Under the pieces are notes generated by a model. It did not search any database and was not told where the DNA came from. It saw only the letters and a program-made list of their open reading frames with translations. Positions 13,917 through 60,179 of a stretch of 64,000 nucleotides of DNA are shown here, one piece after another. The DNA is from Phyllobates terribilis (Eukaryota). The DNA lies in assembly GCF_046119375.1 (NCBI RefSeq), contig NW_027362762.1:254944001-255008000 (forward strand), given 5' to 3'. Numbering within the stretch: position 1 is the stretch's first letter; every line of letters begins with the position of its first letter. Position numbers and translations under genes: made by a program.

Positions 13917-14412
13917 TAGCAGACTGCAGTGCATATAGCACAAGAGGCTCCATTCCAGTTCTGCCTTCTGCTGCTGTTAGATATTTCTAGAAATAGGCCC
14001 AGGTCTCAGGGGCAAGGAATAATTTTTTGGGCTCTTAATCCTCATTATTTGTTAAAAAGCAATCCAGAGAACACTGTTTTTCTGCACCATTTGCTTGTTG
14101 GCACTGCAGAATACATCCAGGTCCTTTACATATTACAGCGCTAAAAATCCAGCCATTTAAAACTGTATTTTGTCTGTCACGCGGATCACATATAATTGCG
14201 CTGAAAATAGTGCCATTTTTGGTCTTCATTCAAATTCATTTGTGTCAGCAAAGTTTTTGACACCGATTTGCTATTCAAATTACTTACCTACAGGCCAGGT
14301 ATTTAAAACTGTGGTTTGTCCGTCACACGGATCACGTATACGTTTTCTGAAAATTCTGCCATTTCTGGCCTCCATTCTAATTTTTTTTCAGTGATATTGT
14401 TCTCCATTTAAA

Positions 14413-17400: not shown

Positions 17401-17700
17401 GGGAAGATGCTGAGGGAGTACCTTGCCGACTGTACTAATGTCCTCCGTGATTCCTTTGTGACTTATAATTATTGGGTATTCAAGCTGGATACGTGGAATA
17501 ACTGGCTCTCTGTGCCTTGGAGGTCCTGGCCTGCCCTGCCGCCAGCGTTATATCAGAACGGGTTTTTAGTGCCGCTGGTGGAATTAGAACTGATAAGTGC
17601 ATCCTCCTGTCAACTGAAAATGCTGACAGGCTGACTCATATAAAAACGAACAAGGGCTGTTTAGGGCCAGACTTCTCAACACCACCGAATGATAGTAGAG
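14413..17700 (+). pseudogene. hAT transposase pseudogene of element B
   Basis: MGKARGKG RG-rich start; BED remnant AICTTC..MIRHMAA; KVHLTTDTW; VCDNG; CLARVLNL; CDVPTRWNSTL; CPAASVISERVFSAAGG; many stops and frameshifts. Confidence 0.92.
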
Positions 17701-20929: not shown

Positions 20930-20988
20930 TATCCCCCAATTCTGTTAATATCCCCCATCCTGGTATATATGCCCCCCCCTTCCTATTA

Positions 20989-22557
20989 CACTGTGTTCCA
21001 AATTATTATGCAAATAATATTTTCTCAGATTTTCCCAAATTACCTATATGAATTGCAGTCATTGTAATTTTCCAGTCAAATAACTATTAGAGTACAATTG
21101 AAAGGTTTTTGTACAAACTGCCTATGATAACAGTATATTTTTAAAAAAATAAAAATCTCAAACTGCACTCAAAATGCATGTTCTAAATTATTATGCACAG
21201 CAGTTTTCAACCTTTTCATTTTAATAAAGAACAAAAAAATGGTCATTTTTGAAATTATAAGCATTAGCAGGTTATTACAAACTTAAATCAAACAGTTTTC
21301 AACTCAAAACTTTATTCTAGGTGATGTTACATTTGCACATAGGACCACTTGTTCAAAAGGAGCTTCTGAACTTCCGCGTCCATTGAATTTGTCAGGTTTT
21401 GGATGGTTTCTGCTTCCAATTGTTTTGCATGAGGACACAATACCCTCCCAGAGCTGTTGCTTAGATGTGAACTGCCTCCCGCCATCATAGACACTCCTTT
21501 TGATGATGCTCCAGAGGTTCTCAATGGGGTTGAGGTCAGGGGAGCATGGGTGTCACACCATAAGTTTGTCCTCTTTTATGACCATATCAGCCAGAGATGC
21601 AGATGTGTTATGTGCAGCATGAGACGGGGCATTATCATGCATGAAATGATCTCGATGGTCCAGATGGATGGAGTGGAGGATGGCTGGTTGATGGACACCC
21701 AATGCAAACACGGCTACGGCGCTAACAAAGGGGAGGTGGAGTAATGTTTTTGGCTGGAATCATGGGGAGAGAGATTGTCGGCCCTTTTAGGATCCCTGAA
21801 GGGGTAAAGATGAACTCCATAATGTATCTTGAGTTTCTCAAACAGCACTTCCTTCCATGGTTCAAGAAGAAGAACTGTGCATTCCGTAGCAAGATCATTT
21901 TCATGCATGATAATGCCCAGTCTCATGCTGCAAATAACACATCTGCATCTCTGGCTGCTATGGGCATAAAAGGGGACAAACTTATGGTGTGGCACCCATG
22001 CTCCCCTGACCTCAACCCCATTGAGAACCTCTGGAGCATCATCAAAAGGAGTGTCTATGATGGCGGGAGGCAGTTCACATCTAAGCAACAGCTCAGGGAG
22101 GGTATTCTGTCCTCGTGCACAACAATTGAAGCAGAAACCAACCAAAACCTGACAAATTCAATGGACGAGAGAGTTCAGAAGCTCATTTCGAACAAGCGGT
22201 CCTATGTGCAAATGTAACATCACCTAGAATAAAGTTTTGGGTTGAAAACTGTTTGATTTAAGTTTGTAATAACCTGCTAATGCTTATAATTTCAAAAATT
22301 ACCATTTTTTTGTTCTTTATTAAAATGAAAAGGTTGAAAACTCTGCTGTGCATAATAATTTGGAACATGCATTTTGAGTGCAGTTTGAGTCTTTTATTTT
22401 TTTAAAAATATACTGTTATCATAGGCAGTTTGTACAAAAACCTTTCAATTGTACTCTAATAGTTATTTGACTGGAAAATTACAATGACTGCAATTCATAT
22501 AGGTAATTTGGGAAAATCTGAGAAAATATTATTTGCATAATAATTTGGAACACAGTG
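20989..22557. mobile_element. Fold-back DD37E (TRT-like) Tc1/mariner derivative built from two 3' ends
   Basis: TA|CACTGTGTTCCAAATTATTATGCAAA...|TA; 20989-21652 is the inverse of 21892-22557, including C-terminal coding sequence; ORF 21744-22217 HDNAQSH...SPDLNPIE has 37 residues between D and E. Confidence 0.9.
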
Positions 22558-22559
22558 TA

Positions 22560-23865
22560 TACGTGACCCCCATCCCCATCCTGGTATGTATGGCACCACT
22601 CCATCCTAGTATGCATGGCACCCCTCCATCCTGGTATACATGGCACCCATTCATCCTGGTATACATGACACCCCTGATCCCATCTTGGTATGCATGGCAC
22701 CCCTCCATCCTGATAGGCATGGCACCCCTCATCCTGGTGTGCATGGCACCCCTGATCCCCATCCTAGCATGCATGGCACCCCTCCATCCTGATAGGCATG
22801 GCACCCCTCATCCTGGTGTGCATGGCACCCCTGATCCCCATCCTAGCATGCATGGCACCCATCCATTCTGGTATTCAAGGCACCTCTCATCCTGGCATGC
22901 ATGGCATCCCTCATCTCCATTCTTATATGCATGGCACCCCTCCATCCTGGTATGCATGGCACCCCATCCATCCTGGTATGCATGCCATCCCTCCATCCTG
23001 GTATGCATGGCACCCATCCATCCTGGTATGCATGGCACCCCTCTATCCTGGTATGCATGGCACTGCTCTATCCTGGTATGCATGGTGCTCCTCTATCCTG
23101 GCATGCATGGCACCCCTCATCTCCATCCTGGTATGCATGGCACCCCTCCATCTTAGTATGCATGGCATACTTCATCCTGGTATGCATGGCACCCCTCCAT
23201 CCTGGTATGCATGGTACCCCTGATCTCCATCCTTGTATGAATGGTACCCCTGATCTCCATCTTGGTAAGTATGGCACCCCTCATCCTGGTATCCATGGCA
23301 CCCCTGATCCCCAACCCTGGTATGCATGGCACCCCTGATCTCCATCCTGGTATGCAAGGTGCCCCTCATCCCGGTATGGATGGCACCCCTCATCCTGGTA
23401 TGCATAGCACCCTCATCCTTATCCGGGTATACAAGGCTCCCCTCGTCCTTATCCTTGTATGCATGCCACTCCTCATCCTTATCCGGGTATGCATGGTACC
23501 CCTCTTCCTGGTATGCATGGCACCCCTCATCCCTATCTTGGTATGCATGACACTCCTCATCCCTATCCTGGTATGCATGGCACCCCTCACCTTATCCTGG
23601 TATGCATGGCACCCCTCATCCCTATCCTGGTATGCAATGCCTCCCTCATCCTTATACTGGTATGCATGGCACCCCTCATTCCTATTCTGGTATGCATGAC
23701 ACCCTTCATCCATATCCTGCTATGCATGGCACCCCTCATTCCTATCCTGGCATGCATGGCACCCCTCATCCCTATCCTGGTATGCATAGCACCCCTCATA
23801 CCTATCCTGGCATGCATGGCAAACCTTCATCCTTATATGCATGGCACCCCTCATCCCCATCACAC
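22560..23865 (-). repeat. 24-30-bp minisatellite of H3
   Basis: Plus-strand unit (CCCCAT)CCTGGTATGCATGGCACCCCTCAT, the inverse of the H1 unit. Confidence 0.95.
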
Positions 23866-25425
23866 TGCGCACAAAAAAAAAACTACTTCTACTTACCTTT
23901 CTTCCCTGTGCTCCAGTGCTGCATCCCATTCTGCTGCCAGCACTGATCTCACCTTGTGAGCCGCGCATGATGCCCTCACAAGGTGATATGAGCTGCCTGA
24001 ATAGTCCTCCGGAGGCCGGGGTAGGAGTGTGGCACCAGAGTACGCGCATGCCCCTGCCGAGCTGTCCGGTGCCATTTTATTAAAGACACACTGCAAATGG
24101 GTCTTCACTAAAATGGCGCCGGATAGCGCGCTATGCGCATGCGCTGATTCCGACCCTGCACTCCTCCCCTGCTCTCCGGCCCGAATAGAGGAGCTGCGGC
24201 AACACTCCTCCTGGTCAGGTATGTACTTATGGTGCCGTAGATCGCGGTATGCGTTCAGTGCCTATGGATACCACTATCTCCGGCGCCATATACTCCTCTT
24301 ACCTGTAACGGCTGGGTGTGTTCTTCTGTCTGGAGCCAGACTGCACGGTGCATTGCGCTTGCACAGTCTATAGAGGCTTCGGACAGACAAACACATTCCT
24401 GACTATATTATAGATATATGTTTTACCATTTGGTAGAAAAAAAAACAATTGTGGAATTGCACTTTTTTTGCAATTTTACCGCACTTTGATTTTTTTTTCC
24501 CGTTTTCAAGTACACTATAAGGTAAAACCAAAGGTGTTGTTCAAAAGTACAACTCGTCCCACATTAAACAAACCCGAATACGGCTATATTGACAGAAAAA
24601 TAAAAAAGTTATGGCTCTGGGAAAAAGGGGAGCAAAAAACTAAAGCTCAAAAATGAAAAATGGCCATAGCGTGAAGGGGTTAATAAAGTTTGTTTTGATC
24701 ACCAAACATATTTAAAAAATGCTGTGAAAAACACCTTTGTAATTTATGCTGTTTTTTCACTTTTTCGTTATTTTCCTTGGGTGAAAAAAACACTGAAAGA
24801 ATTGACATGCTACATATGTAAAAAACGCTACAGTTCTCAAATTCAATCAGGAAAAAAAACAAGTTTGTTTATGAGATTTCTGAAATCTAACATGCTTTGC
24901 TTGTACTATAAAAGGCAACTTTTAATTTGCATAAAAAACAGCAAAAAAAACCCTGCTGCAAAAACACATTGAGAATGCTTCAAAAATAATAGCCTTTCAA
25001 GTCATCTAATATATAAAGCTGAATGTGTGTGTGTATGTATGTATGTATGTATGTGTGTATGTCTGGGATTGGCATCTGCACCGTCGCAGCTACAGCCACA
25101 AAATTTTGCACAGTCACACGTCTGGACCCCGAGAGCGTCATAGGCTATGTTGTGAGGTGAAATTTTAACCCCGCTCATTCCAATTCACCAAACAATTTCG
25201 CCCTTATCAGCACACACAAAACTCATCTCACAAAGATTTATCAGGCTGCCAATAGCAACCAATCACAGCTCAGCTTCTATTTTGCTACAGTTAATTAATC
25301 TGAGCTGTGATTGGTTATTATAGGCAACAAAGGACATTCTCAGTATAACAAAGCTTGTGTAAGGTAATAAGATGTCAGTTAGGGTGTGTTTGTGGAAAGG
25401 GTGATGTCAGTCACATTGCTTCTAT

Positions 25426-28400
25426 GTGAGAGGATATAGAAACTGCCAGTTACAGACTATTTTTACCACAATAATGTCTCATAAGAAAAGGAATTTCATG
25501 GCACGAATGTCAGCTGATGCGAAAAGAAAAGCTGCATTACGGGCCAATGAAAAATATGAAGACCGAGAAACAAAGCTGACACACATGAGAACAGCAGCTG
25601 CTTCCTTAAGAGCCAATGAACTTTCTGAGCAGAGGGAAGTGAGGCTTGCAGACATGAAAAGAAGAGCTGCTTCCTCAAGAGCCAATGAACTTTCTGAGGA
25701 CAGGGAAGCGAGGCTTTCAGACATGAAAACAAGAGCTGCTTCCTCAAGAGCCAATGAACTTTCTGAGGAGAGGGAAGCGAGGCTTGTGGACATGAAAACC
25801 AGAGCTGCTTCCTCAAGGGCCAATGAACTTTCTGAGCAGAGGGAAGCGAGGCTTGCAGACATGAAAACAAGAACTGCTTCCTCAAGAGCCAATGAACTTT
25901 CTGAGGAGAGGGAAGCGACGCTTGCAGATAAGAGAGGAAGAGATGCTACCTCAAGGGCCATTGAGTCATCTCAGCAGAGAGAAGGCCGATTTGCCACTAA
26001 GAGAATTGCTATTTCTTCCACCAGGGCACAGGAAATGGTTGGAGATTTGAAACATGCTGCCTTTTGTTACCAGTCAGACATAAACTATCAGGTTAATCCT
26101 AAAGTTCAGATAGGAAAAATGGATGTGGTCTGCATGTACTGCAGTGCCCTGAAATGGAAAGATGAACCGCCAGGTTTATGCTGTGCAAATCGCAAGATAA
26201 ACCTTCCACCTCTCCTGTCACCACTAGATCCTCTAAAGTCTCTGATGACAGGTACCAGTACAATAAAAAAGCATTTCTTGGACAACATTAGGAAGTACAA
26301 CTCCTGCTTCCAAATGACATCATTTGATGCAACAAAAGAAATGTTTACAACAGGATGCCGACATTTAAAGTTCAAGGACAGGTTTACCACTCAATTGGCT
26401 CACTGCTTCCATTACAAGGAGAAGAACCTCAATTTCTTTAACTCTTCTTTATGGGAAATGCAGAAGCAGAGGCTCAGCAGCACTTTTTTGCAGCACTTCC
26501 TTCACTCCAACAATCTATATGTTCAACTTTTCAAGACTGCACTTGAATGCATGTGAAATGATGATTACAAGGTTGTCATTCGAGCTGACAAAACACCACA
26601 AGGTGAACATCAGCGACATTCAAATGCTCCCACATTTGATGAGGTAGCCATCTTGATTGTAGGTAATGATTTTCAAATCCGTGACATTGTGCTTCAGAAA
26701 AGGAACAATAGTTTGCAACGAGTAGCAGAAACTCACAGGTCCTATGATACTCTGCAATATCCAAACATCTTTTGGCAGGGACAGGATGGCTATCACTTTG
26801 GAATACCTCAGACAGATCCTACAACAGGCAACCCTTCAGGAAAAAAAGTGTCTGCCATGGACTTCTATGCATATAGGATCATGACAAGATTTGCAGAGGA
26901 AAATCCCATTTTTAAATGCAAACACCTCTTCCACCAATTTATTGTTGACTTGTATGCAAAGATTGAGAGTGAATGTCTTTTATATATCCGACTAAATCAA
27001 AAGAAGCTCAGGGCAGAGGAATATATTCACCTTAGAGATGCTTTTGCAAATGATGCTGAGCCAAAAGAGTTGGGGAAAATGGTTATTCTTCCATCAACTG
27101 TCACTGGAAGCCCACGACACATGCATGAATACACACAGGATGCAATGGCTTATGTGAGAAAGTATAGCCGCCCAGATCTTTTCATCACCTTTACTTGCAA
27201 TCCTGCCTGAGAGGAAATTGGAGGGCACCTGTTGCCGGGCCAAAAAAAAAGGGAATCGACATGACCTTATTGCTCGGGTTTTCAAGCAGAAACTTTCAAA
27301 AATGACTAATCTCATCACAAAAACACATATTTATGGTGAGACGCAGTGCTGGATGTATTCAGTTGAATGGCAAAAAAGAGGCCTTCCTCACGCCCACATC
27401 TTGATGTGGCTGAAGCAACAAATACAGCCTACCGAAATTGACAATATCATCAGTGCCGAATTGCCAGACCCTCAGATTGACCCATTGCTGTTTGACACCA
27501 TCACAAAAAACATGATCCATGGTCCGTGAGGGAGTCTGAGCAAAAATTTTCCCTGTATGATTGATGGCAGGTGTTCAAATCATTACCCACGATCCCTGGT
27601 CCAAGAAACCCAAACAGGACAAGATGGATATCCAGTCTACCGAAGAAGAAAGCCAGGGGATGGTGGTTTCATATCAAAGCTCAAAATGCATGTTGGATCA
27701 TCACTCCAAGAGATAGAAATTGACAACAGGTGGGTAGTGCGTTACAACCCTTTGCTCTCAAAAATCTTCCAGGCCCACATAAATGTCGAATCTTGCCACT
27801 CTGTGAAATCAATCAAGTATATCTGCAAATATGTCCACAAAGGAAGTGATCAAGTAGTTTTTGAACTCCAGAAAAATGGACCTATTTTATTGATGAAGTG
27901 GAGGCATTCCAGATGGGCAGGTACATAAGCAGCAATGAAGCTGTTTGGAGAATACTAGGATTCTCATTCATGAGCGCTACCCACCAGTTGTGCATCTGAG
28001 TGTGCACTTTGATAATGGACAAAGAATTTACTTTAACCCAGCAAACGTGCAGAAGCAGCTCCTAACACCACCTAAGACGACCCTCTTGGCATTTTTTGAG
28101 CTGTGTAAACCAGACCCTTTTGCAAAAACAATTCTCTACTGTGATTTACCAAAGTACTACACTTGGAATGCCTCCAGAAAAACACTGGAACGGAGGAAAC
28201 TGGGGCTTGATATTGAAGGCTATCCAGGGGTGAAAGCAACTGATACTCTTGGTCGCATCTACACTGTTCATCCGTCAAATGCAGAGTGCTTCTACCTGCA
28301 CATGTTACTTCATGTTGTCAAAGGCCCTACATCATTTTCTGACCTGAAGACCGTCGGAGGCCATGTGTGTGAAACATTCAGGGAAGCTTGCCAAATAAAA

Positions 28401-28820
28401 GGTCTTTTGGAAAATGATGGACACTGGGACATGACCCTCAGTGAAGCAGCAGCCACACAAACCCCAAAGCGACTAAGACACCTCTTTGCTATTATTCTAA
28501 CAAGCCGTAGCATTTCAAATCCTCTTGAGATTTGGACAAAGTACAAAACTGATCTCAGTGAGGACATCCTCATGCAGATTAGAAGGGAAAATCCTCAGCA
28601 ACTCATCAACTTCACTGAGGAAATGTTCAATGAAACTTTAATGCTCCTTGAAGATCAATGCATAGCAATGTCAGGAAAAGCCTTACAGTTGCTTGGTTTG
28701 CCTGCTCCTATAAGAAATCCTGAAGGCATCCAAATGGGTATGGAGATTTTCCTAGAAACAAACTACAATATTGATGAACTGACAGCATTTGTGTCTCAGA
28801 ACGAGTCAATATTGGTACCA
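25426..28820 (+). pseudogene. Helitron RepHel, N-terminal and Rep (HUH) part
   Basis: VVCMYC...PGLCC Zn-like motif; NIRKYNSCFQMTSF; Rep motifs FITFTCNP, VEWQKRGLPHAHIL (HUH), KYICKYVHKG (Y2); several stops and frameshifts. Confidence 0.95.
25545..26030 (+). repeat. Coding 69-bp (23-aa) repeats, ~7 units, STPR-like
   Basis: GCCAATGAACTTTCTGAG at 25612, 25681, 25750, 25819, 25888; peptide RANELSEQREARLADMKTRAASS. Confidence 0.9.
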
Positions 28821-31800
28821 CTTAAAATATCCTGCGCTGGTAACGTTTAGGCCGTATAGAAGAAGGGGGAGGGTTTTTTAAGGACCAGATATGAACAGTA
28901 GGAGAGGATGATAAAAATGTGTTTATTTTTATTTAGGATAATAATCTCACATAAAATTGACGTTAAATAACATAGACACTTAAAATATTAAAATAATTTA
29001 ATAGGGGTTGATGGTGGGTATTTTGTTGTAGAGGCTCTGTGTATATTCTTGTACTAGTGGCCTTGTGGGTTTCCAGGCCAGTTTTAGAGGGGTTGTAGTC
29101 CGGATGGTACCTTGGTGTAAAAAAGGCAGGGGGGGGGAGAGGGGGAAAGGAGGGGTTAATGACTAGATAGTGACCAGTATGATTGGAATGGCTAATCTCC
29201 CTAGTGGAAGAGGTGATTTACCTGTTGTCGGTCAGATAGGATATCCAAGTGTGGATGGCTGGTACTTTGGGCGATGATCGTTGCTGGTTAAGGCAGCGGG
29301 GTTAGGAGTAGCCGCTAGTGGATATAGAGTATTGTTAGTTAAACCGATAACACAGTAGAGAGGGTCAAAATGGACCATAAGAAGAAGTGCAGTATGTACC
29401 AGTGAAGAAGGAGGACTCTGTGTGGGTGACAGGGCTGCACTTGATGGTGTCTGCCATCTTGATGGTTGTCCGGTTCCGGGCAATGGATGGCTGTTGTGAA
29501 TCGCAGTGCCTGAGGCTACTTGCTGCTGTTGCCGAATAGTATATAGGTGTGTACGTGTATGGGGTCTGTGGGGCACAGCTAAGAAAATACGTATTTACCT
29601 GTAGGAGGTGCTGTGTAGGTCCCAGGTTAGCTGTGCTGGTAACTGGGCTCTTGATTGATGCTGTCCTATGCTGGGTGATGGACCGCTGTTTATATATCAA
29701 GAGGCTTTAAAGGGTGCTATGGAATTAAATGTCAGTCAAAAAAGGCAAATATGGATCCGAATTGGTAGGGGGAGGGCATGCACAATACAGATAAGAAAAT
29801 TAGGGTTACCTGTTAGGTAAGAGCACTGAGAGTCTGCTGGTTCCTTGGACACACTGGTAGTGTGGATAGCAGTGGGGAACCAGTGTATGTGCTCTAGGTA
29901 AATACACTGAGGATCTATTTGTTCCTCTTGGACACTTTCGTGTTGATCATGGGAGATGTGCAGTCTGGTGTGTGTGCAAGAAGGTGCACACGATGGTACA
30001 GTCTTGGATATTAGATGTCACCGTGGGAGCGGAGCTCCATACTTACAGTTGGTTGTCTGTCAGGACTGACAGGAGTTCGTTAGCGTCTAGCTATAGGTGC
30101 TCCCCAAGTCTCGGTTGGCAGTGGGGGAGAGAGTGGGGGAGCGGTAGGGTATAGAGGTGAGTCGCGAAGGGAGTGTGACAGGGTCCCGGCCGGAGACCAG
30201 CTGTTCTCCCTTGCGCTAAGCGTCTTTGGTCCCTGTCAGCCACCGTACCGGTACGGGTCACGTGCGCGCTGTCACGTGCACTGACGTCACGCAGGTCCTA
30301 CTGCATTGACCCAAGGCGCCAATCCAAGGTCCTTTCCGCCCTCCACAGACCGTCGACGGAGGGCGATTAGCGCAAGGGGGAACAGCTGGTCTCCGGCCGG
30401 GACCCTGTCACACTCCCTGCGCGACTCACCTCTATACCCTACCGCTCCCCCACTCTCTTCCCCACTGCCAACCGAGACTTGGGGAGCACCTATAGCTAGA
30501 TGCTAACGAACTCCTGTCAGTCCTGACAGACAACCAACTGTAAGTACGGAGCTCCGCTCCCACGGTGACATCTAATATCCAAGACTGTACCATCGTGTGC
30601 ACCTTCTTGCACACACACCAGACTGCACATCTCCAATGATCAATACGAAAGTGTCCAAGAGGAACAAATAGATCCTCAGTGTATTTACCTAGAGCACATA
30701 CACCGCTTCCCCACTGCTATCCACACTACTAGTGTGTCCAAGGAACCAGCAGACTCTCAGTGCTCTTACCTAACAGGTAACCCTAATTTTCTTATCTGTA
30801 TTGTGCATGCCCTCCCCCTACCAATTCGGATCCATATTTGCCTTTTTTGACTTACATTTAGTTCCATAGCACCCTTTAAAGCCTCTTGATATATAAACAG
30901 CGGTCCATCACCCAGCATAGGACAGCATCAATCAAGAGCCCAGTTACCAGCACAGCTACCCTGGGACCTACACAGCACCTCCTACAGAAAAATACGTATT
31001 TTCTTAGCTGTGCCCCACAGACCCCATACACGTACACACCTATATACTATTCGCCAACAGCAGCAAGTAGCCTCAGGCACTGCGATTCACAACAGCCGTC
31101 CATTGCCCGGAACCGGACAACCATCAAGACGGCAGACACCATCAAGTGCAGCCCTGTCACCCACACAGAGTCCTCCTTCTTCACGGGTAAATACTGCACT
31201 TCTTCTTATGGTCCATTTTGACCCTCTCTACTGTGTTATAGATTTAACTAACAATACTCTAGATCCACTAGCGGCTACTCCTAACCCTGCTGCCTTAACC
31301 AGCAACGATCATCACCCAAAGTACCAGCCATCCACACTTGGATATCCTATCTGACCGACAACAGGTAAATCACCTCTTCCACTAGGGAGATTAGCCATTC
31401 CAATCATACTGGTCACTATCTTGTCATTAACCCCTCCTTTCCCCCTCCACCCCCCCCCCCCCCCGCCTTTTTTACACCCAGGTACCATCCAGACTACAAC
31501 CCCTCTAAAACTGGCCTGGAAACCCACAAGGCCACTAGTACAAGAATATACACAGAGCCTCTACAACAAAATACCCACCATCAGCCCCTATTTTATTACT
31601 TTAATATTTTAAGTGTCTATGTTATTTAACGTCAATTTTATGTGAGATTATTATCCTAAATAAAAATAAACACATTTTTATCATCCTCTCCTACTGTTCA
31701 TATCTTGTCCCTAAAAAACCCTCCCCCTTCTTCTATACGGCATAAACGTTACCAGCGCAGGATATTTTAAGTACTTTCATTTTAACAATTGGACTCTTCC

Positions 31801-31888
31801 AATATTGTCAACCTGTGGTTGGTTGTCTATCCCTTGCAGCAGGTAATATCCAGGCCTACCTACCAAGCGCCTACACACAATTTTATTT
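28821..31888. mobile_element. Unclassified 3.07-kb palindromic insertion with 16-bp TSD
   Basis: GTCAATATTGGTACCA at 28805-28820 and 31889-31904; arms ~28820-30220 and ~30367-31772 are inverted copies; 116-bp unpaired tail 31773-31888; the Helitron frame rejoins as NESILVP|DQR when the insert is removed. Confidence 0.88.
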
Positions 31889-32937
31889 GTCAATATTGGT
31901 ACCAGATCAAAGGGACGACCATGAATACATTTTAAGTTTCAGTGAAACCAACAAAGGTGGGATTGTCTTCCTTGATGCTCCAGGTGGAACAGGAAAGACA
32001 TTGGTAATCAACTTGCTCTTGGCAAAATTTCGACCACAAAAAAAGATTGCACTTGCAGTGGCATCTTCTGGAATTGCAGCTACGCTTTTAAAAGATGGCA
32101 GTACAGCACATTTTACATTCAAACTACCACTTAACCTGTCTCATAATGACAGCCCCACAATGTGATATTGCCAAGGGATCAGGACTGGCCAAATTGCTTC
32201 AAAAATGCAGTGACATCATTTGGGATGAATGCACCATGTCACACAAAAGGGCTCTGGAAGCAGTGGACAGACTACTGCAAAACCTGCGTAGCAACAAATA
32301 TATCATGGGTGGAGTAGTTGTTGCTTTGGAAGGTGACTTCCGCCAAACACTACCTGTTAATCCAATATCAACCCCTGCAGATGAACTGAATGCCTGTCTC
32401 AAAGCATCGTACCTTTGGAGAAAAGTAAAGAAAACATCACTGAACACAAACATGAGGGTCTACATGAAAGGCGATGTTTCTGCTGGACTGTTTTCGAGCC
32501 AGCTGTTGACTATTGGAGATGGCAAGGAACCAGTAAACTTAACCATTGGACAGATCACCTTCCCAAGCAACTTTTGTTGCATTGTGACTTCCATTGAGGA
32601 GTTGAAAGCAAAGGTTTTTCCAAACATTCAACTCCACTTCTAAAATTCCGTCTGGCTGTGTGAAAGGGCTATTCTAGCTCCCAAAAATGACATTGTCAAC
32701 AAGATCAAGCTTCAAATTCTAAATCTGCTTCCAGGTGTGTGCACAAGCTACAAGTCAGTGGATACAGTAATAGACCCTGCTCAAGCATTATTTTATCCAA
32801 CTGAGTTCCTCAATTCCTTGGAGCCACAAGGACTTCCTCCTAACAACCTCTTTCTAAAACCTGGAGCACCTATTCTGCTATTGAGAAATTTGAATCCACC
32901 AAAGCTGTGTAATGGAACAAGAGTCTTGTTTAAGAAC
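31889..32937 (+). pseudogene. Helitron RepHel, PIF1-like SF1 helicase part
   Basis: FLDAPGGTGKT (motif I), AVASSGIAATLL, IIWDECTM (II), GDFRQTLPV (III), PILLLRNLNPPKLCNGTR. Confidence 0.95.
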
Positions 32938-33693
32938 TAGTGTTGAGCGACCACTAAAATGCTTGTGTGCTCGAAGCTCGGGCCGATCTCACCGTGATAC
33001 TCGGGTGCTCGACCCGAGCAATGAGCCCAATGTTAGTCTATGGGAGACCCGAGCATTTTTGCGGCTGCACCCCCGGCAGTCTGAAGAAAGCCTAAAAAGT
33101 GCCCAAAACGATAGTGACAGTGTTCAAATGACATGGGGACAGCATGGGGATCGCCCCAGGAAGCATTTCTCACCCCGAGGTCACTGCTTTCAACAACGTG
33201 GTCAGAGGTATTAAGCCACGTTTACGGGCTCACAATAAAACGTTCAAAAACGAAACTGAAACTGTTTTCCTGTGAAATATGTTAAGGAACTTTCTTTTCA
33301 GGGTAAAGACTTGTGTATAAGGTAAAATAAATAACCAAAAACAAAAATACTCCTCCACACCTTGGGCTATGTTCACAAGTAGCATTTTTTATGCGTTTTT
33401 GCACTTTTGTATTGCTTTCAACCGTGACAAATGCATTCACCGGGAAATGTCATTTTAACATTTTACAATCTTATCTGGCCATGTGCTGTGTGACACATGC
33501 ATACAGTGCTGAAAAGAAATGGGAACAGCATGGGGAAGACCCCTGGAAGCACCTCTGACACACAGATCACTGCCTAAAAGTGTGCCCATCAGAAGTGTTC
33601 CTTGCCGCATCAGAAGAAGCAGACTTGCAACTATCCCCGTGCAAGTCCTTGTTCCAGGGCAGTGTTCAATTGTACCTCTCCTATTCCTTACAA

Positions 33694-34960
33694 TGCAAGC
33701 GCAGGTATGCAGCCTGCCACCCACCCACCCCCAGGCTGCAGTACCATACTGCTAGCTTGCTTGCACTTGAAATTGGGCCTTTTAGGCATGTGGAGGCAGA
33801 CCCCAGTGACCAGGTCATGGCTGTGTCGGCGGCCTGGTATCCATACTCAGACCCCAGCCACCCGGCAGCCGGGTGTCCATGCTCGGTCCCCAGCCGCCAG
33901 GGGGCGGCCGGGTGTCCATACTTGGTCCCCAGCTGTCCCGCGGTCGGGTGCCCACACGGTCCCCAGCCGCCTGGGGGCGGCCGGGTGTCCATAAACGGTC
34001 CCCAGCAACCCCTATTTCTCCTGTGAACTTCCCTCACACTTTTCTTAGCCTGGCCTGCTTTAGGGCAGCATTGGACGAGCCCACCAGAGAACCAGACTCC
34101 TCCGGTGGGCCCTGGCTTCTCCATCAGGGGAGTTGAGAGTGCCAAGGTGAGGATCATGATGATGATGATAGAAGTTAGCATCTGCTTTGTTTTCTTGAAA
34201 TGCAAGCGTAAGTATGCAACCTGCCATGCACCCACCCCCAGGCTGCAATACCATACTGCTAGCTTGCTTGCACTTTAAATTCTGCCTTTTAGGCATGTGG
34301 AGGCAGACGCCAGCCACCATGTCATGGCTCCGTCGGCAGCCTGGTATCCATACTCAGTCCCCAGCTGCCCGGCGGCCAGGTGTCCACGCTCGGTCCCCAG
34401 CCGTCAGGGGGTGGCCAGGTGTCCATACTCGGTCCTCAGCCGCCCCGTGGCCAGGTGCACACACACAGTCCCCAGCCGTCTGGGGGTGGCCGGGTGTCCA
34501 TAAACGGGCCCCAGCCACCCCTATTTCTACTGGGAACTTCCCCTACACTTTTCTTAGCCTGGCCTGCTTTAGGCCAGCATTGGACGAGCCCACCAGAGAA
34601 CCAGACTCCTCCAGTGGGCCCTGGTTCTCCATCAGGGTAGTTGAGAGTGCCAAGGTGAGAAGCATAATGATGATGATAGAAGTTAGCATCTACTTTGTTT
34701 TCTTGGAATGCAAGCGTAAGTGTGCAACCTGCCACCCACCCACCCCCATGCTGCAATACCATACTGCTAGCTTGCTTGCACTTGAAATTGGGCCTTTTAG
34801 GCATGTGGAGGCAGACGCCGGCCACCATGTCATGGCTGCTTCGGCGGCCTGGTGTCCATACTCGGTCCCCAGCCGCCCCACGGCCGGGTGCCCACACACG
34901 GTCCCCAGCCACCTGGGGATGGCCGGGTGTCCATAAACTGTCCCCAGCAGCCCCTATTTG
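33694..34960 (+). repeat. ~2.5 x 507-508-bp tandem units derived from hAT transposase coding sequence, with internal GC-rich ~38-bp subrepeats
   Basis: TGCAAGCG at 33694, 34201, 34709; translates KRRYAACHP..LLALEIGPFRHVE..YSVPSR, matching transposase LLALEMLPFRLVE..RYSVPSR. Confidence 0.85.
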
Positions 34961-35819
34961 AAGGACAGCCTAACCACAAACACTTGGAAAAGTGAATGTG
35001 GCCAGTGATGGTCCATCTGACTGACGCCTTCACACTGGGTTAATATTGTGGAAGCCGGGACACAGTTGGACACTGGGTTGCAACACGTCCTCCAGACATA
35101 GAGGATTGCGGGTCCTGGGTCAATCAGGTTTCAACACAAAGTTCAGAAGGTAGACAGCAGCAGTGGTCAGCCTCCTACACAACGAGTAAATTATTCATGA
35201 TCATGAGGCCATCCATCTCCTTAGCTTTCTGTTCCTTGGAATGCAAGCGCATGTATGTAGCAGTGGCTAGGCCTGAGGTGGTCAGCGTTTTGGCACATAT
35301 CCTACCTCCTTTGAGGATTGCTGGATGTTTTCCTGCTACTATCCTAGTTCTATGACTCCCATTTAAACAAAGCTTCAGGTGATGAATGTCGGATGAGGTG
35401 GTGGCAAAGGAGAAAGAGCAGGAGGAACAGGGACCATTTACATGAATATCAGGCCAGTCAATTACACATGTCTTGTAGGATATGTTTCTGTACCAAAAGG
35501 AGCGGTTCGGTTACACAGTTATAGGGCATACAGTGAGTGCAATGCCTACCAAAAATTTCGAGGCACTCCAATGCACCTTGGAAGTGACATGAAGGTCAGA
35601 GGGCCTTAACTAAACCATTTTTTCCATTTATAGCAATTGGGTCTCCTGTACACTGTTGGCCTAAGCAGTGAATGGAAGGCTTTCCAAAAAATATGAGGAA
35701 CTGCAATGCCCCTTGAAACAGACGTGGATTACAGCATACCATAAACCTTCTACCCATTATTGGGGAGTGGGTCTCCCTTAGTGTTTGCCTAAGCATTGAA
35801 ATGCAAAATCTGACTAAAA

Positions 35820-38800
35820 TTAGGAGGAAATGCAATGCCCCTTGGAAGAGTCGTGAAGTTAGAGGTAATTAAAAACAACATTTCAATGCCCCTTGGAAGA
35901 GACGTGGAGGTCACAGTAGCTTAACAAGACGGTTTTAATGCCCCTTGGAAGAGTGGTGGAACTTACAGTGGAATAAAAAGACAATATCAATGCCCCGTGG
36001 AAGAGATGTGTAGGTCACAGTAGCTTAACAAGATGGTTTTAATGCCCATTGGAAGAATGGTGGAGGTCGCAGTTGAATAAAAAGACAATATCAATGCCCC
36101 TTGGAAGAGTGGTGGAGGTCGCAGTAGCTTAACAAGACGGTTTTAATGGTGGAGGTCGCAGTAGTTAACAATACGGTTATAATGCCCCTTGGTGAAGTGG
36201 TGGAGGTCGCAGTAGCTTAGCAAGACAGTTTTAATGCCCCTAGGAAGAGACTTGGAGGTCAGAGTGGTTTAACAAGATGGTTTTAATGCCACTTGGAAGA
36301 GTGGAGGAGGTTGCAGTGGCTTAACAAGACGGTTTTAATGCCCCTTTGAAGAGATGTGGAGGTTGCAGTAGCTTAACAAGACGGTTTTATTGCCCCTTGG
36401 AAGAGTGGTGGAGGTCACAGTAGCTTAACAACACGGTTTAAATGCCCTTTGGAAAAGTGGTGGAGGTCGCAGTAGCTTAACAAGACGGTTTTAATGCCCC
36501 TTGGAAGAGACGTGGAGGTCTGAGTGGTTTAACAAGATGGTTTTAATGCCTCTTGGAAAAGTGGTGGAGGTCGCAGTAGCTTAACAAGACGGTATTAATG
36601 CCCCTTGGAAGAGAGGTGGAGGTCTGAGTGGTTTAACAAGACGGTTTTAATGCCTCTTTAAAAAGTGGTGGAGGTCGCAGAAGCTTAACAAGACGGTATT
36701 AATGCCCCTTGGAAGAGACGTGGAGGTTGCAGTAGCTTAACAAGACGGTTTTCATGCCCCTTGGAAGAGTGGTGGAGGTCACAGTAGCTTAACAACACGG
36801 TTTAAATGCCCCTTGGAAGAGACGTGGAGGTCACAGTGGAATAAAAAGACAATATCAATGCCCCTTGGAAGAGTGGTGGTGGTCGCAGTAGCTTAACAAG
36901 ACAATTTAATGCCTCTTGGAAAAGTGGTGGAGGTCGCAGTAGCTTAACAAGATGGTTTTTATGCCCCTTGGAAGAAACGTGGAGGTCTGAGTGGTTTAAC
37001 AAGACGGTTTTAATGCCTCTTGGAAAAGTGGTGGAGGTCGCAGTAGCTTAACAAGACGGTATTAGTGCCCCTTGGAAGAGAAGTGGAGGTCAGAGTGGTT
37101 TAACAAGATGGTTTTAATGCCCATTGGAAAAGTGGTGGAGGTCGCAGTGGCTTAAAAAGATGGTTTTCATGCCCCTTGGAAGAGCGGTGGAGGTCACCGT
37201 AGCTTAACAAGATGATTTTAATGCCCCTTGGAAGAGTGGTGTAGGTCGCAGTAGCTTAACAAGAGAGTTTAAATGCCCCTTGGTAGAGTGGTGGAGGTTG
37301 CAGTAGCTTAACAAGACGGTTTTTATTCCCCTTGTAAGAGACGTGGAGGTCGCAGTAGCTTAACAAAATGGTTTTAATTACCCTTGGGAGAGTGGTGGAG
37401 GTCACAGTAGCTTAACAAGATGGTTTAAATGCCCCTTGGAAGAGACTTGGAGGTCACAGTGGAATAAAAAGACAATATCAATGCACCTTGGAAGAGTGGT
37501 GGAGGTCGTAGTGGAATAAAAAGACAATATCAATGTCCCTTGGAAAAGAGGTGGAGGTCACAGTAGCTTAACAAGACGGTTTTAATGCCCCTTGGAAAAG
37601 TGGTGGAGGTCGCAGCATCTTAACAAGACGGTTTTTATGCCCCTTGGAAGAGACGTGGAGGTCTGAGTGGTTTAACAAGACGGTTTTAATGCCCCTTGGA
37701 AAAGTGGTGGATGTCGCAGTAGCTTAACAAGGTGGTTTTAATGCCTCTTAGAAGAGACGAGGAGGTCAGAGTGACTTAACAAGATGGTTTTAATGCCCCT
37801 TGGAAAAGTGGTGGAGGTCGCAGTAGCTTAACTAGATGGTTTTTATGCCCCTTGGAAAAGACGCGGAGGTCTGAGTGGTTTAACAAGACGGTTTAAATGC
37901 CCCTTGGAAACGTGGTGGAGGTCGCAGTAGCTTAACAAGACGGTTTTTATGCCCCTTGGAAAAGACGTGGAGGTCTGAGTGGTTTAACAAGATGGTTTTA
38001 ATGCCTCTTGGAAAAGTGATGGAGGTCGCAGTAGCTTAACAAGACGATATTAATGCCCCTTGGAAGGGACGTGGAGATCTGAGTGGTTTAACAAGATGGT
38101 TTTAATGCCTCTTTAAAAAGTGGTGGAGGTCGCAGAAGCTTAACAAGTCGGTATTAATGCCCCTTGGAAGAGATGTGGAGGTTGCAGTAGCTTAACAAGA
38201 TGGTTTTCATGCCCCTTGGAAGAGTGGTGGAGGTCACAGTAGCTTAACAACACGGTTTAAATGCCCCTTGGAAGAGACGTGGAGGTCACAGTGGAATAAA
38301 AAGACAATATCAATGCCCCTTGGAAGAGTGGTGGATGTCACAGTAGCTTAACAAGACAATTTTAATGCCTCTTGGAAAAGTGGTGAAGGTCAGAGTAGTT
38401 TAACAAGCTGGTTTTAATGCCCCTTGGAAAAGTGGTGGAGGTCGCAGTAGCTTAACTAGACTGTTTTAATGCCCCTTGGTAGAGCGCTGGAGGTCGTAGT
38501 AGCTTAATATGACGGTTTTAATGCCCCTTGGAAGAGTGGTGGTGGTCGCAGTAGCTTAACAAGACAGTTTAAATGCCCCTTGGAAGTGTGGTGGAGGTCT
38601 CAGTAGCTTAACAAACAGTTTAAATGCCCCGTGGAAAAGTGGTGGAGGTCGCAGTAGCTTAACAAGATGGTTTTAATGCCTCTTGGAAGAGACGTGGAGG
38701 TCAGAGTGGTTTAACAAGATGGTTTTAATGCCCCTTGGAAAAGTAATGGAGGTCGCAGTAGCTTAACTAGACGGTTTTAATGCCCCTTGGAAGTGTGGTG

Positions 38801-41800
38801 GAGGTCTCAGTAGCTTAACAAGACAGTTTAAATGCCCCGAGGAAAAGTGGTGGAGGTTACCGTAGCTTAACAAGATGATTTTAATGCCCCTTGGAAGAGT
38901 GGCGTAGGTCGCAGTAGCTTAACAAGAGAGTTTAAATGCCCCTTGGTAGAGTGGTGGAGGTTGCAGTAGCTTAACAAGACGGTTTTAATTCCCCTTGTAA
39001 GAGACGTGGAGGTCGCAGTAGCTTAACAAAATGGTTTTAATTACCCTTGGGAGAGTGGTGGAGGTCACAGTAGCTTAACAAGATGGTTTAAATGCCCCTT
39101 GGAAGAGACTTGGAGGTCACAGTGGAATAAAAAGACAATATCAATGCACCTTGGAAAAGTGGTGGAGGTCGTAGTGGAATAAAAAGACAATATCAATGTC
39201 CCTTGGAAAAGAGGTGGAGGTCACAGTAGCTTAACAAGACGGTTTTAATGCCCCTTGGAAAAGTGGTGGAGGTCGCAGCATCTTAACAAGACGGTTTTTA
39301 TGCCCCTTGGAAGAGACGTGGAGGTCTGAGTGGTTTAACAAGACGGATTTAATGCCCCTTGGAAAAGTGGTGGATGTCGCAGTAGCTTAACAAGGCTGTT
39401 TTAATGCCTCTTAGAAGAGACGAGGAGGTCAGAGTGATTTAACAAGATGGTTTTAATGCCCCTTGGAAAAGTGGTGGAGGTCGCAGTAGCTTAACTAGAT
39501 GGTTTTTATACCCCTTGGAAAAGACGCGGAGGTCTGAGTGGATTAACAAGACGGTTTTAATGACCCTTGGAAAAGTGGTGGAGGTCTCAGTAGCTTAACT
39601 AGACCGTTTTAATGCCCCTTGGAAGAGCGGTGGAGGTCGCAGTAGCTTAACAAGACAGTTTTAATGCCCCTTGGAAGAGTGGTGGAGGTCGCAGTAGCTT
39701 AACAAGACAGTTTAAATGCCCCGTGGAAAAGTGGTGGAGGTCGCAGTACCTTAACAAGACGGTTTTAATGCCCCTTGGAAAAGTTGTGGAGGTCACAGCA
39801 GCTTAACAAGACAATTTTAATGCCCCGTGGAAGAGTGGTGGAGGTCGCAGTTGCTTAACAAGAGAGTTTAAATGCCCCATGGAAGAGTGGTGGAGGTCGT
39901 AGTTGCTTAACAAGACGGTTTTAATGCCCCATGAAAGAGACGTGGAGGTCGCAGTAGCTTAACAATATGGTTTTAATGCCCGTTGGGAGAGTGGTGGAGG
40001 TCACAGTAGCTTAACAAGATTTTTTAAATGCCCCTTGGAAGAGACTTGGAGGTCACAGTGTAATAAGAAGACAATATCAATGCCTCTTGGAAGACTGGTG
40101 GGAGTCGCAGTTGAATAAAAAGCCGATATCAATGCCCCTTGGAAAAGTGGTGGAGGTCACAGTAGCTTCACAAGACGGTTTTAATGCCCCTTGGGAAAGT
40201 GGTGGAGGTCGCAGTAGCTTAACAAGATGGTTTTTATGCCCCTTGGAAGAGACGTGGGGGTCTGAGTGGTTTAACAAGACGGTTTTAAAGCCCCTTGGAA
40301 AATTGGTGGAGGTCGCAGTAGCTTAACAAGATGGTTTTAATGGCCCTTGGAAGAGACGTGGAGGTCAGAGTGGTTTAACAAGATGGTTTTAATGCCCCTT
40401 GGAAAAGTAATGGAGGTCGCAGTAGCTTAAATAGATGGTTTTAATGCCCCTTGGAAGAGTGGAGGAGGTCGCAGTAGCTTAACAAGATGGTTTTAATGCC
40501 CCTTGGAAGTGTGGTGGAGGTATCAGTAGCTTAACAAGACAGTTTAAATGCCCCGAGGAAATGTGGTGGAGGTCACCGTAGCTTAACAAGATGATTTTAA
40601 TGCCCCTTGGAAGAGTGGTGTAGGTCGCAGTAGCTTAACAAGAGAGTTTAAATGCCCCTTGGTACAGTGGTGGAGGATGCAGTAGCTTAACAAGACGGAT
40701 TTAATTCCCCTTGGAAGAGATGTGGAGGTCGCAGTAGCTTAACTACATGGTTTTCATGCCCCTTGGGAGAGTGGTGGAGGTCACAGTAGCTTAACAAGAT
40801 GGTTTAAATGCCCCTTGGAAGAGAATTGGAAGTCATAGTGGAATAAAAAGACAATATTAATGCCCCTTGGAAGAGTGGTGGAGGTCGCAGTGGAATAAAA
40901 AGACAATATCAATGCCCCTTAGAAAAGTGGTGGAGGTCACAGTAGCTTAACAAGACTGTTTTAATGCCCTTGGAAAAGTGGTGGAGGTCGCAGGAGCTTT
41001 ACAAGACGGTTTTAATGCCCCTTGGAAGAGACGTGGAGGTCAGAGTGGATTAACAAGACTGTTTTAATGCCCCTTGGAAAAGTGGTGGAGGTCGCAGTAG
41101 CTTAACAAGGCAGTTTTAATACCCCTTGGAAGAGCGGTGGAGTTCGCAGTAGCTTAACAAGATGTTTTTATTGCCCCTTGGAAGAGTGGTGGAGGTCACA
41201 GTAGCTTAACAAGACAGTTTTAATTCCCCTTGGAATTGCGGTGGAGGTCGCAGTAGCTTAATAAGACGGTTTAATTGCCCCTTGGAAGAGACGTGGAGGT
41301 CAAAGTGATTTAACAAGACGGTTTTAATGCCCCTTGGAAAAGTGGTGGAGGTCGCAGTAGCTTAATAAGACGGTTTAATTGCCCCTTGGAAGAGACGTGG
41401 AGGTCAAAGTGGTTTAACAAGACGGTTTTAATGCCCCTTGGAAAAGTGGTGGGGGTCACAGTAGCTAAACAAGACGGTTTTTATGCCCCTTGGAAGAGCG
41501 GTGGAGGTCGAAGTAGCTTAACAAGACGGTTTTAATGCCCCTTGGAGGAGTGGTGGAGGTCGCAGTAGCTTAACAAGACGGTTTTAATGCCCCTTGGAAG
41601 AGATGTGGAGGTCAGAGTGGTTTAACAAGATGGTATTAATGCCCCTTGGAAGAGTGGTGGAAGTCACAGTAACTTATCAAGATAGTTTAAATGCCCCTTG
41701 AAAGAGACGTGGAGGTCACAGTTGAAAAAAAAGACAATATCAATGCCCCTTGGAAGGGTGGTGAAGGTTGCAGTGGAATAAAAAGACAATATCAATGCCC

Positions 41801-46372: not shown

Positions 46373-46661
46373 ACAAGAGCCATGCAGTACAGCATATTAA
46401 AAACATTATTCCCATTTTTGGGGTGTGGGTCTCCCATAGTCTTTGCCTATGCCTTCCATGCAAAAGCTGCCAAAAATTCGGACGGAGGAACTTGCAATGC
46501 TGACAACATGGACCACAGTCACCCTGGTGCTGTAGTGGTTGTGGAGGCTGAGGATAAATAGAAGAACTTAAAGCATCCGAAATGAGGAAGCGTATACCCA
46601 TGTGTGGTTGTGAAGCGGTGCATGGGAATACACCTCCCGAAATAACACAGTGGATTTGACT

Positions 46662-54232: not shown

Positions 54233-54249
54233 CCACACTCTTCGATCAA

Positions 54250-55606: not shown

Positions 55607-55678
55607 TACATGTGCTTTTCCACAAAACACCAGTGGTTCACGTAGTGAATCTTACAGTTCTAACTTCCCAACCGTGGT

Positions 55679-60128: not shown

Positions 60129-60179
60129 TGTAAATGAAGTAAAATAGCTTACACTCGCACTATCAATGGAAAAAGGGTA

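What the first reader, a model, noticed from the sequence alone, without database searches (positions are those of the whole stretch)
28805..31904. 3-kb non-coding palindromic insertion with a perfect 16-bp TSD: unclassified mobile element
Seen: ~1.4-kb inverted arms (roughly 90-95% identical by eye), a ~145-bp CpG-rich spacer, an asymmetric 116-bp tail, and a 16-bp duplication that exactly restores the Helitron frame. There is no transposase, RT or poly(A) tail, and the arms have GT-AG intron-like segments reading outward from the centre (donors ~30777 and 31365, acceptor 31481). Established: 16 bp is longer than hAT (8), Mutator (~9-11), Tc1 (2), piggyBac (4) or LTR (4-6) TSDs and is typical of target-primed retrotransposition; Penelope-like elements retain introns and form inverted pseudo-LTRs with a tail. 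Inference: a non-autonomous PLE-like or new fold-back element that could yield a ~1.4-kb dsRNA hairpin or a cruciform. I found no hammerhead core, which weakens the PLE reading.
Basis: partly seen in the sequence, partly recalled or inferred. Interest (0 to 1): 0.78.

Follow-up and report, generated by a model that had tools for sequence, protein, structure and literature searches.

The report
Head-to-head Penelope-style insertion keeping introns
A real 3-kb mirror-image insertion in a frog genome has the known layout of Penelope-like jumping genes; it is unusual in carrying a long non-coding end with at least two retained introns and an extra-long one-sided tail, which could help test how these elements copy themselves without losing introns.

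Summary
Observation confirmed. A 16-bp duplication (28805-28820 = 31889-31904) flanks 1.4-kb head-to-head arms (97.3% identical, not 90-95%), a 137-bp CpG-rich spacer and a 116-bp one-sided tail. Removing it restores the Helitron frame in 98 of 104 homologues. The host is probably a poison-frog relative. Public contigs show a multi-copy family. Relatives join arm to tail and run on upstream of the spacer with other letters, so the unit looks 5'-truncated and is not a terminal-inverted-repeat transposon. Inverted truncated copy, tail, long TSD and retained introns match Penelope-like (PLE) insertions. Best reading (0.7): the ORF-less end of a PLE-type element inserted head-to-head about 5-14 My ago. 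Membership is unproven: no RT, GIY-YIG or canonical hammerhead, and no autonomous partner could be retrieved. Unusual: unit of at least 1.6 kb, several introns, tail three to four times the usual length. One lead: a degenerate antisense hammerhead-like motif would cut exactly at the arm end (post hoc, poor fold). dsRNA hairpin and cruciform are unsupported. New variant of a known kind; interest 0.42.

The parts
28805..28820 (+). Left target-site duplication (16 bp; last base ambiguous with the arm)
   Evidence: empty site in paralogous Helitron contigs
28821..30224 (-). Inverted arm: copy of 30362-31771, more deeply 5'-truncated, lacking the tail
30225..30361 (+). Spacer = unique 5' part of the direct unit; CpG-rich, with CRE, two E-boxes, CCAAT and GC-box motifs (consensus motifs recalled) and a 14-bp palindrome at 30243-30256; promoter-like by inference
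30362..31772 (+). Direct arm: ATG-poor, multi-exon non-coding unit read outward
30370..30422 (+). Predicted hairpin in the stretch (30372-30422) that RNA-like contigs of diverged relatives share
   Evidence: 30330-30430: z -2.55, 1 of 200 shuffles; one of six segments folded
30988..31060 (+). Intron skipped in one RNA-like contig (run X10, depth 2); donor GT in the left arm and in the DNA contigs listed there, AA in the right arm
31187..31271 (+). GT-AG intron skipped in one RNA-like contig (run X9, depth 4)
30777..30869 (+).
   Evidence: no RNA joint listed
31365..31481 (+).
   Evidence: 31435-31477 was skipped as a repeat
31769..31811 (-). Degenerate hammerhead-like motif (U3-A8 core, 3-bp helices) and 8-bp palindrome 31769-31776 centred on the arm end; unproven lead
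31773..31888 (+). One-sided tail, 116 bp; shared by family relatives
31889..31904 (+). Right target-site duplication
25405..28820 (+). Host: decayed Helitron Rep-helicase gene, upstream part (STPR, Helitron_like_N)
31905..32640 (+). Host: decayed Helitron gene, PIF1 helicase part (runs on beyond)

Best explanation
This is the ORF-less end of a Penelope-like (PLE-type) retroelement family, inserted head-to-head into a Helitron of a frog. Shown: one insertion with a 15-16-bp duplication; both arms from one source lineage; a dispersed family whose unit goes on beyond the inner junction; a unit spliced on the outward strand while DNA copies keep the introns. Inferred: a PLE RT/GIY-YIG enzyme supplied in trans nicked both target strands 15-16 bp apart. 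It primed cDNA at each nick from two internal start sites of unspliced RNA (near 31888 and near 31772), so the tail is the distance between the start sites. Both cDNAs stopped early (30225, 30362) and were joined head-to-head. The unit is the promoter plus a long spliced leader (pseudo-LTR). Within this reading I put two-site priming on unspliced sense RNA at about 0.5, an antisense template with self-priming at about 0.4, other routes 0.1. The copy codes for nothing; it may still hold a promoter.
For: Layout equals the described PLE unit: an inverted 5'-truncated copy, a tail at one end and a variable TSD (PMC8557442 passages; Pen2 copies with inverted pLTRs and 9-10-bp TSDs, PMC3846280). Family: 250 (X1) and 187 (X5) contigs laid at 88% or more, all 30 bins covered; one X1 contig and two X5 contigs start at 30225 with other letters upstream; an X5 loose end at 31780 has arm-end letters joined to tail letters. 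Introns: 2 of the 8 joints listed come from RNA-like runs of two studies, both fit GT..AG, and neither is seen in the two DNA runs; chance for both is about (2/256)x(5/256), my arithmetic. PLEs are described as highly unusual among retroelements in retaining introns. Leader signal: 6 ATG on the outward strand against 17.0 expected (2 of 1000 shuffles); of the 5 ATGs shared by both arms, one lies in an RNA-skipped intron, one in a candidate intron and two in an AT-rich stretch. One source: of 29 variant rows inside the arm, 12 have both arms sharing a base that differs from the variant listed, 17 have left arm = listed variant, 0 other. Mechanism model: the Anolis Poseidon enzyme cleaves and extends both strands and starts at two internal RNA sites whose interval is the tail (PMC11167929); applying this to inverted arms is my inference. 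PLEs occur in anurans (PMC12822217 passages; bioRxiv 10.64898/2026.07.22.740005).
Against: No RT or GIY-YIG sequence in the copy, and no autonomous partner could be fetched: no genome held, 0 hits in four collection scans. No canonical hammerhead, although these are reported for vertebrate Poseidon and Neptune PLEs. The tail is 116 nt against 30-40. It has no ATG, whereas the Pen2a pLTR and tail and the Poseidon tail lie in the ORF start; one open tail frame found no longer relative (weak search). TSD of 15-16 bp exceeds the 8-10 bp of the Adineta examples. No second copy with its own TSD or inverted arm was seen: no strand-change joint was listed and 89 of 113 loose ends were not shown; depth at the arm end equals depth in the tail (1014 vs 1005; 467 vs 575) instead of doubling, though depth is no copy number. 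Each intron rests on one contig under depth 5 from runs whose RNA nature is guessed or unrecorded.
Confidence: 0.7

Rival explanations
1. An intron-bearing non-coding repeat family moved by an enzyme other than a PLE RT (a new kind of non-autonomous element), the PLE-like layout being convergent.
For: No RT, endonuclease, canonical hammerhead or ORF start; tail and TSD longer than in described PLEs; two AATAAA at 31659 and 31665 could end a stand-alone spliced RNA before the tail.
Against: Inverted truncated copy, one-sided tail, long TSD and retained introns together are described for PLEs, and for no other group in the passages read. The AATAAA stretch has indels in family contigs (table 4).
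Confidence: 0.1
2. A one-off repair event: a family copy was patched into a staggered break with a fold-back duplication (templated insertion), so the palindrome is no product of the element's own cycle.
For: No second palindromic copy seen; no depth doubling in the arm; both arms from one lineage.
Against: Clean 15-16-bp TSD with no loss of Helitron codons; no microhomology at the inner junction beyond a weak imperfect match (read by eye); the family itself is dispersed and keeps its introns.
Confidence: 0.08
3. A TTAA-type DNA transposon (Kolobok/T2-MITE-like; family features recalled) with 1.4-kb TIRs nested in an older 120-bp retro-insertion that made the 16-bp TSD.
For: Both arm ends carry TTAA followed inward by two purines; DNA transposons can keep introns (recalled); fold-back Tc1-like derivatives exist in the window.
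Against: A relative has arm-end letters continuing into tail letters, depth runs on without a break from arm to tail, and none of the 24 loose ends shown lies at 31768-31772; it needs an insertion at base 2 of a 120-bp target; arm symmetry goes 1-2 bases beyond the TTAA.
Confidence: 0.05
4. L1/Tx1 machinery inserted a family RNA with twin-priming inversion.
For: TSD length fits L1 (recalled); an RT fragment of L1 look lies in the window (clade by eye).
Against: No poly(A); nicks are not at TT|AAAA; L1 twin priming inverts but does not duplicate the segment, and L1 retrocopies lose introns (recalled), whereas here 1.4 kb is duplicated and introns are kept.
Confidence: 0.04
5. Non-autonomous DIRS element (inverted repeats with a right extension).
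For: Asymmetric inverted termini; DIRS elements are common in frogs (groups them with Ty3).
Against: DIRS lack TSDs and have an internal complementary region (PMC8969392); here the TSD is 16 bp and the termini match the spacer over 5-6 nt at most.
Confidence: 0.02
6. Assembly or fold-back read artefact.
For: No listed contig spans the inversion junction.
Against: Arms differ by 38 substitutions, 7 of 27 checked being CpG transitions; left-arm bases match independent family contigs in 17 rows; a chimeric read makes no TSD.
Confidence: 0.01

Closest known systems
Endonuclease-bearing Penelope-like element insertions with inverted pLTR and tail (Pen2/Pen2a_Av, PMC3846280; general layout in PMC8557442)
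   Same: Head-to-head inverted copy shorter at its 5' end than the direct copy, one-sided tail, flanking TSD, palindrome near the inverted junction (14 bp, 18 nt from it), promoter-like sequence in the repeat, retained introns.
   Different: No ORF; unit at least 1.66 kb against about 200-bp pLTRs; tail 116 against 30-40 nt; TSD 15-16 against 8-10 bp; no ORF start in the tail; no canonical hammerhead.
Drosophila virilis Penelope (PMC2377424) and Chlamys-3_cRei (PMC8557442)
   Same: Promoter and spliced 5' leader inside the terminal repeat; intron kept in DNA copies; large inverted terminal repeats of variable size.
   Different: One leader intron there (75 bp; 398 bp); at least two RNA-supported and up to five or six candidate introns here.
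Poseidon of Anolis carolinensis, PAc (PMC11167929)
   Same: Vertebrate PLE; two internal RT start sites and both-strand priming would give this anatomy.
   Different: PAc start sites lie 111-118 nt into the ORF with a sense hammerhead upstream; neither ORF nor sense hammerhead is present here.
Non-autonomous PLE derivatives: animal retrozymes (bioRxiv 10.64898/2026.07.22.740005), non-autonomous Chlamys such as MRC1 (PMC8557442)
   Same: ORF-less, presumably moved in trans.
   Different: Retrozymes are short (51-972 bp consensus) tandem units with type I hammerheads; this is a 3-kb head-to-head unit with introns.

Membership tests
Penelope-like elements (EN+) | Telomerase-like RT fused to GIY-YIG endonuclease | tested here: not met
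   Absent from this copy; the copy is truncated, so this lowers 'is a PLE', not 'works like one'
Penelope-like elements (EN+) | Family linked to an autonomous PLE ORF | not testable with these tools
   No genome; four collection scans empty; laid contigs give only 30-nt loose ends
Penelope-like elements (EN+) | Inverted, 5'-truncated copy head-to-head with the direct copy | tested here: met
   feature from PMC8557442
Penelope-like elements (EN+) | One-sided tail (30-40 bp in print) | tested here: inconclusive
   Present and family-borne but 116 bp; whether both ends are fixed in other copies was not seen
Penelope-like elements (EN+) | Variable-length TSD | tested here: inconclusive
   One copy, 15-16 bp; variation across copies not testable
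Penelope-like elements (EN+) | Spliceosomal introns kept in genomic copies | tested here: met
   Two introns skipped in one low-depth RNA-like contig each, kept in both arms and in DNA contigs
Penelope-like elements (EN+) | Direct pLTR / partial tandem | not testable with these tools
   Not present in this copy; other copies not retrievable
Poseidon/Neptune PLEs and retrozymes | Type I (minimal) hammerhead in the pLTR | tested here: not met
   Rfam none; no canonical core with helices of 4 bp or more in the window; one degenerate antisense hit
DIRS | No TSD; internal complementary region | tested here: not met
   16-bp TSD; 5-6-nt best match of termini to spacer; features from PMC8969392
TIR DNA transposons / MITEs (Kolobok, T2, Mutator, Foldback) | Both element ends are terminal inverted repeats with a fixed short TSD (recalled) | tested here: not met
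   Outer ends are unlike; arm continues into tail in a relative
L1/Tx1 retrocopy | Poly(A) tail, intron loss, TT|AAAA nick (recalled) | tested here: not met
Replitrons | Short direct terminal repeats; algae, protists, non-seed plants | tested here: not met
   PMC10288648 passages; termini unlike; host a frog

The most novel reading that the evidence does not exclude
The element is copied from an ANTISENSE RNA that carries a degenerate hammerhead at the arm/tail border. Ribozyme-cut RNA gives the tail-less arm and uncut RNA the arm with the tail, and the introns survive because the template is antisense to the spliced transcript. The only relaxed hammerhead hit on both strands of 64 kb has its predicted cut at 31772|31771, the base where the left arm starts. 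In 5000 local shuffles 29 gave any hit and 1 a cut within 3 nt. Two diverged relatives keep the minus-strand GAAA, one with a 7-bp stem before it and another palindromic 4-mer after it (loose ends read by eye). Against: the variant core was added after I saw the site; the hammerhead fold costs +4.9 against -10.4 kcal/mol for the best fold; G10.1-C11.1 is missing; core positions differ in relatives; known PLE hammerheads are sense to the ORF.
Probability: 0.15. Interest if true: 0.75.

Novelty: new variant of a known kind. Interest (0 to 1): 0.42.

Why it matters
The layout is known, and several earlier AI notes of this scan describe it in other genomes. What this copy adds is scale. With a 116-nt tail, two well separated ends and several introns, the family could settle an open question stated in PMC3846280: whether PLEs keep introns because they copy unspliced sense RNA or an antisense RNA. 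It is also a practical warning: such ORF-less PLE ends carry promoter-like DNA and spliced exons, and would be annotated as unknown repeats or lncRNAs in large frog genomes. I found no description of a multi-intron, kilobase-long PLE leader in frogs in eight literature searches, but Repbase, Dfam and the 2006 paper that defines Neptune were not available, so it may be catalogued already.

Tried and rejected
Whole-genome search: no genome held. Exact-motif scans found nothing in metagenome contigs, viral contigs and genome contigs. No RNA holder is on record; runs X9 and X10 are guessed or unrecorded RNA. Parts without RNA cover (12 and 16 of 30 bins) say nothing. RNA-like contigs of two studies stop at 30382; a weak hint at a start site, not used. 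A 2575-nt X10 contig with a tail-like stretch at its positions 659-691 could be a longer element RNA or a host transcript holding a fragment; it could not be read and is not used. Coding potential: 154-aa frame 30890-31351 had 0 hits among 1.84 billion representatives; one tail frame had 0 hits among longer proteins (the other two frames were not searched there); 18 ORFs had no Pfam family above cut-off; joined candidate exons gave no ATG-started ORF over about 46 codons (read by eye). No tRNA; Rfam none. No other copy of the element in the window. Donor-motif excess (4 outward, 0 inward; 1 of 1000 shuffles) is discounted because the pattern was chosen after seeing the sites. Tail folding is no better than shuffles (z -0.96 and -1.41). 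The two other long inverted structures in the window are Tc1-like and unrelated. PMC5850863 is not held; PMC6431247 and PMC10794172 passages added nothing. Look-ups of earlier findings by sequence, place and two word sets were empty.
Full report
Observation. The finding is real. A 16-bp direct repeat, unique in the window, lies at 28805-28820 and 31889-31904. Between them are an inverted arm and a direct arm with 1365 identities, 38 mismatches and one 6-nt gap (97.3%), a spacer, and a 116-bp tail (31773-31888) on the right only. The host is a decayed Helitron (STPR, Helitron_like_N and PIF1 domains). Of 120 Helitron proteins retrieved, 104 aligned on both sides of the insert; 98 of them put 28820 and 31904 on the same residue, 6 did not. 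The two closest are from poison frogs (93% and 88% identity), so the host is probably of that lineage. Contigs of other Helitron copies show the empty site. An assembly artefact is unlikely: the arms differ by substitutions, 7 of the 27 checked being CpG transitions. But no contig spanning the inversion junction was listed.

Family. No whole genome is held. Twelve of 20 listed public runs, from 4 studies and all of one organism, hold part of the stretch; the best holder may be the source sample. I laid 30205-32080 on four runs. The two DNA runs gave 250 and 187 contigs, mostly 90-99% alike, covering all 30 bins, deepest at the inner end and around the arm end and tail. Contigs that reach 30225 go on upstream with other letters (one in X1, two in X5), so the unit is most simply a longer family sequence cut at that point, and the inversion junction is 30224|30225. 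A diverged relative has arm-end letters running into tail letters, so the tail belongs to the family and the arm end is no transposon terminus. Of 40 variant rows shown (122 not shown), 29 lie in the arm; I dropped 9 in the spacer and 2 beyond the arm. In 17 the left arm has the listed variant, in 12 both arms share a base that differs from it, and 0 are otherwise. The arms thus come from one source lineage and have decayed since. K2P 0.028 with 1-3e-9 substitutions per site per year (PMC12822217) gives 4.6-13.8 My, if the arms were identical at insertion and not homogenised.

Introns. Of 8 joints listed, two come from RNA-like runs of different studies: 31187-31271 (GT..AG, X9) and 30988-31060 (X10; GT in the left arm and in the DNA contigs listed there, AA in the right arm). 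Neither is seen in the DNA runs. Each is one contig at depth 4 or 2, and the runs' RNA nature is guessed or unrecorded; the exact GT..AG fit is what carries the weight. The outward strand has 6 ATG against 17.0 expected (2 of 1000 shuffles), and the spacer is CpG-rich with promoter-type motifs. No coding signal was found. This reads as a promoter followed by a long spliced leader (inference).

What it works like. An inverted, 5'-truncated copy placed head-to-head, a tail at one end, a variable TSD and retained introns are the described marks of Penelope-like elements (PMC8557442, PMC3846280, PMC2377424, PMC8969392). The Anolis Poseidon enzyme cuts and extends both target strands and starts at two internal RNA sites whose interval is the tail (PMC11167929). 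My inference: nicks 15-16 bp apart were each primed, one from a site near 31888 and one near 31772, on unspliced RNA, and the two truncated cDNAs were joined. The published alternative is self-priming on an antisense template (PMC3846280 Discussion). The data here do not separate the two. A 14-bp palindrome lies 18 nt from the inner junction, which mildly suits self-priming.

Against, and membership. The copy has no RT or GIY-YIG, no ORF start in the tail and no canonical hammerhead. The tail is three to four times and the TSD up to twice the printed lengths. No second copy with its own TSD or inverted arm was seen (89 of 113 loose ends not shown; no strand-change joint; no depth doubling at the arm end). 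Four scans of public collections found nothing. I therefore say it works like a PLE insertion (0.7) but do not file it as a member of Poseidon or Neptune. DIRS, TIR transposons, L1 retrocopies and Replitrons each fail a tested feature (features partly recalled).

A lead. A relaxed hammerhead descriptor that admits the U3-A8 core of PMC4209133 has one hit on both strands of the window: on the minus strand of the tail, with its predicted cut at 31772|31771, where the left arm begins. In 5000 local shuffles 29 gave any hit, 1 a cut within 3 nt, 0 at the end itself; an 8-bp palindrome centred on the arm end is as rare as 219 of 63980 positions. But I added that core after seeing the site, the fold is unfavourable (+4.9 against -10.4 kcal/mol), the helices are 3 bp, and with 4-bp helices there is no hit. 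Relatives' loose ends keep the GAAA but alter the core (by eye). If real, it would support the antisense-template model; I give it 0.15.

Both arms read outward from the centre, so a central promoter gives divergent transcripts; a hairpin RNA needs outside read-through, which was not tested. A 137-bp spacer disfavours a cruciform (recalled).

Papers seen: PMC11167929, parts 1-2 of 4; PMC4209133, parts 1-2 of 4 and passages of one of two supplements; bioRxiv 10.64898/2026.07.22.740005, parts 1-3 of 5 (its supplements, which list Xenopus pLTR matches, are closed); PMC3846280, passages and Discussion; passages only of PMC8557442, PMC8969392, PMC2377424, PMC12822217, PMC6431247, PMC10288648 and PMC10794172. 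The 2006 and 2017 papers on Neptune and Terminons were not read. Eight searches found no account of a multi-intron PLE leader in frogs; repeat databases could not be searched. Earlier AI notes of head-to-head PLE insertions in other genomes were not checked and only lowered my sense of rarity.

Verdict. Real; a known insertion layout with unusual dimensions and intron load; new variant of a known kind; interest 0.42.

Noticed in passing
window 20987-22559: TA-flanked element with 669-bp inverted arms (96%) around a 240-bp centre, apparently a fold-back derivative of a Tc1-like transposon made of its 3' part; a longer copy lies inverted at about 54246-55610. Tc1 label by eye and recall.
   Followed up: partly
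window 12266-13918: TA-flanked element with 213-bp inverted repeats (99%), Tc1-like by eye.
   Followed up: partly
window 50834-53869: Uninterrupted 1011-codon frame with zf-BED and hAT dimerisation domains, a possibly intact hAT transposase; further zf-BED frames at 58882-59511 and 62082-63248.
   Followed up: no
window about 35600-46500: Long 52-bp-period satellite (one search shows it to 37000; extent inferred from GC skew), preceded by about 508-bp repeats at 33600-34960.
   Followed up: no
window 30334-30363 and 31785-31808: Two small hairpins whose stems appear kept by two-sided changes in single diverged relatives (tables 5c and 7, read by eye): possible cis-elements at the two best-shared parts of the unit.
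   Followed up: partly
window 30640-30775: Degenerate internal repeat of about 75-bp period within the arm.
   Followed up: no
window 55638-56480 (-): RT fragment (Pfam RVT_1, E 6e-13), L1-like by eye, not related to the element.
   Followed up: partly
window 8600-10300 and 22560-24400; 14395-17863 and 46507-48225, 58392-60146: Diverged (70-80%) inverted copies of other repeats, one with a short-period minisatellite.
   Followed up: no
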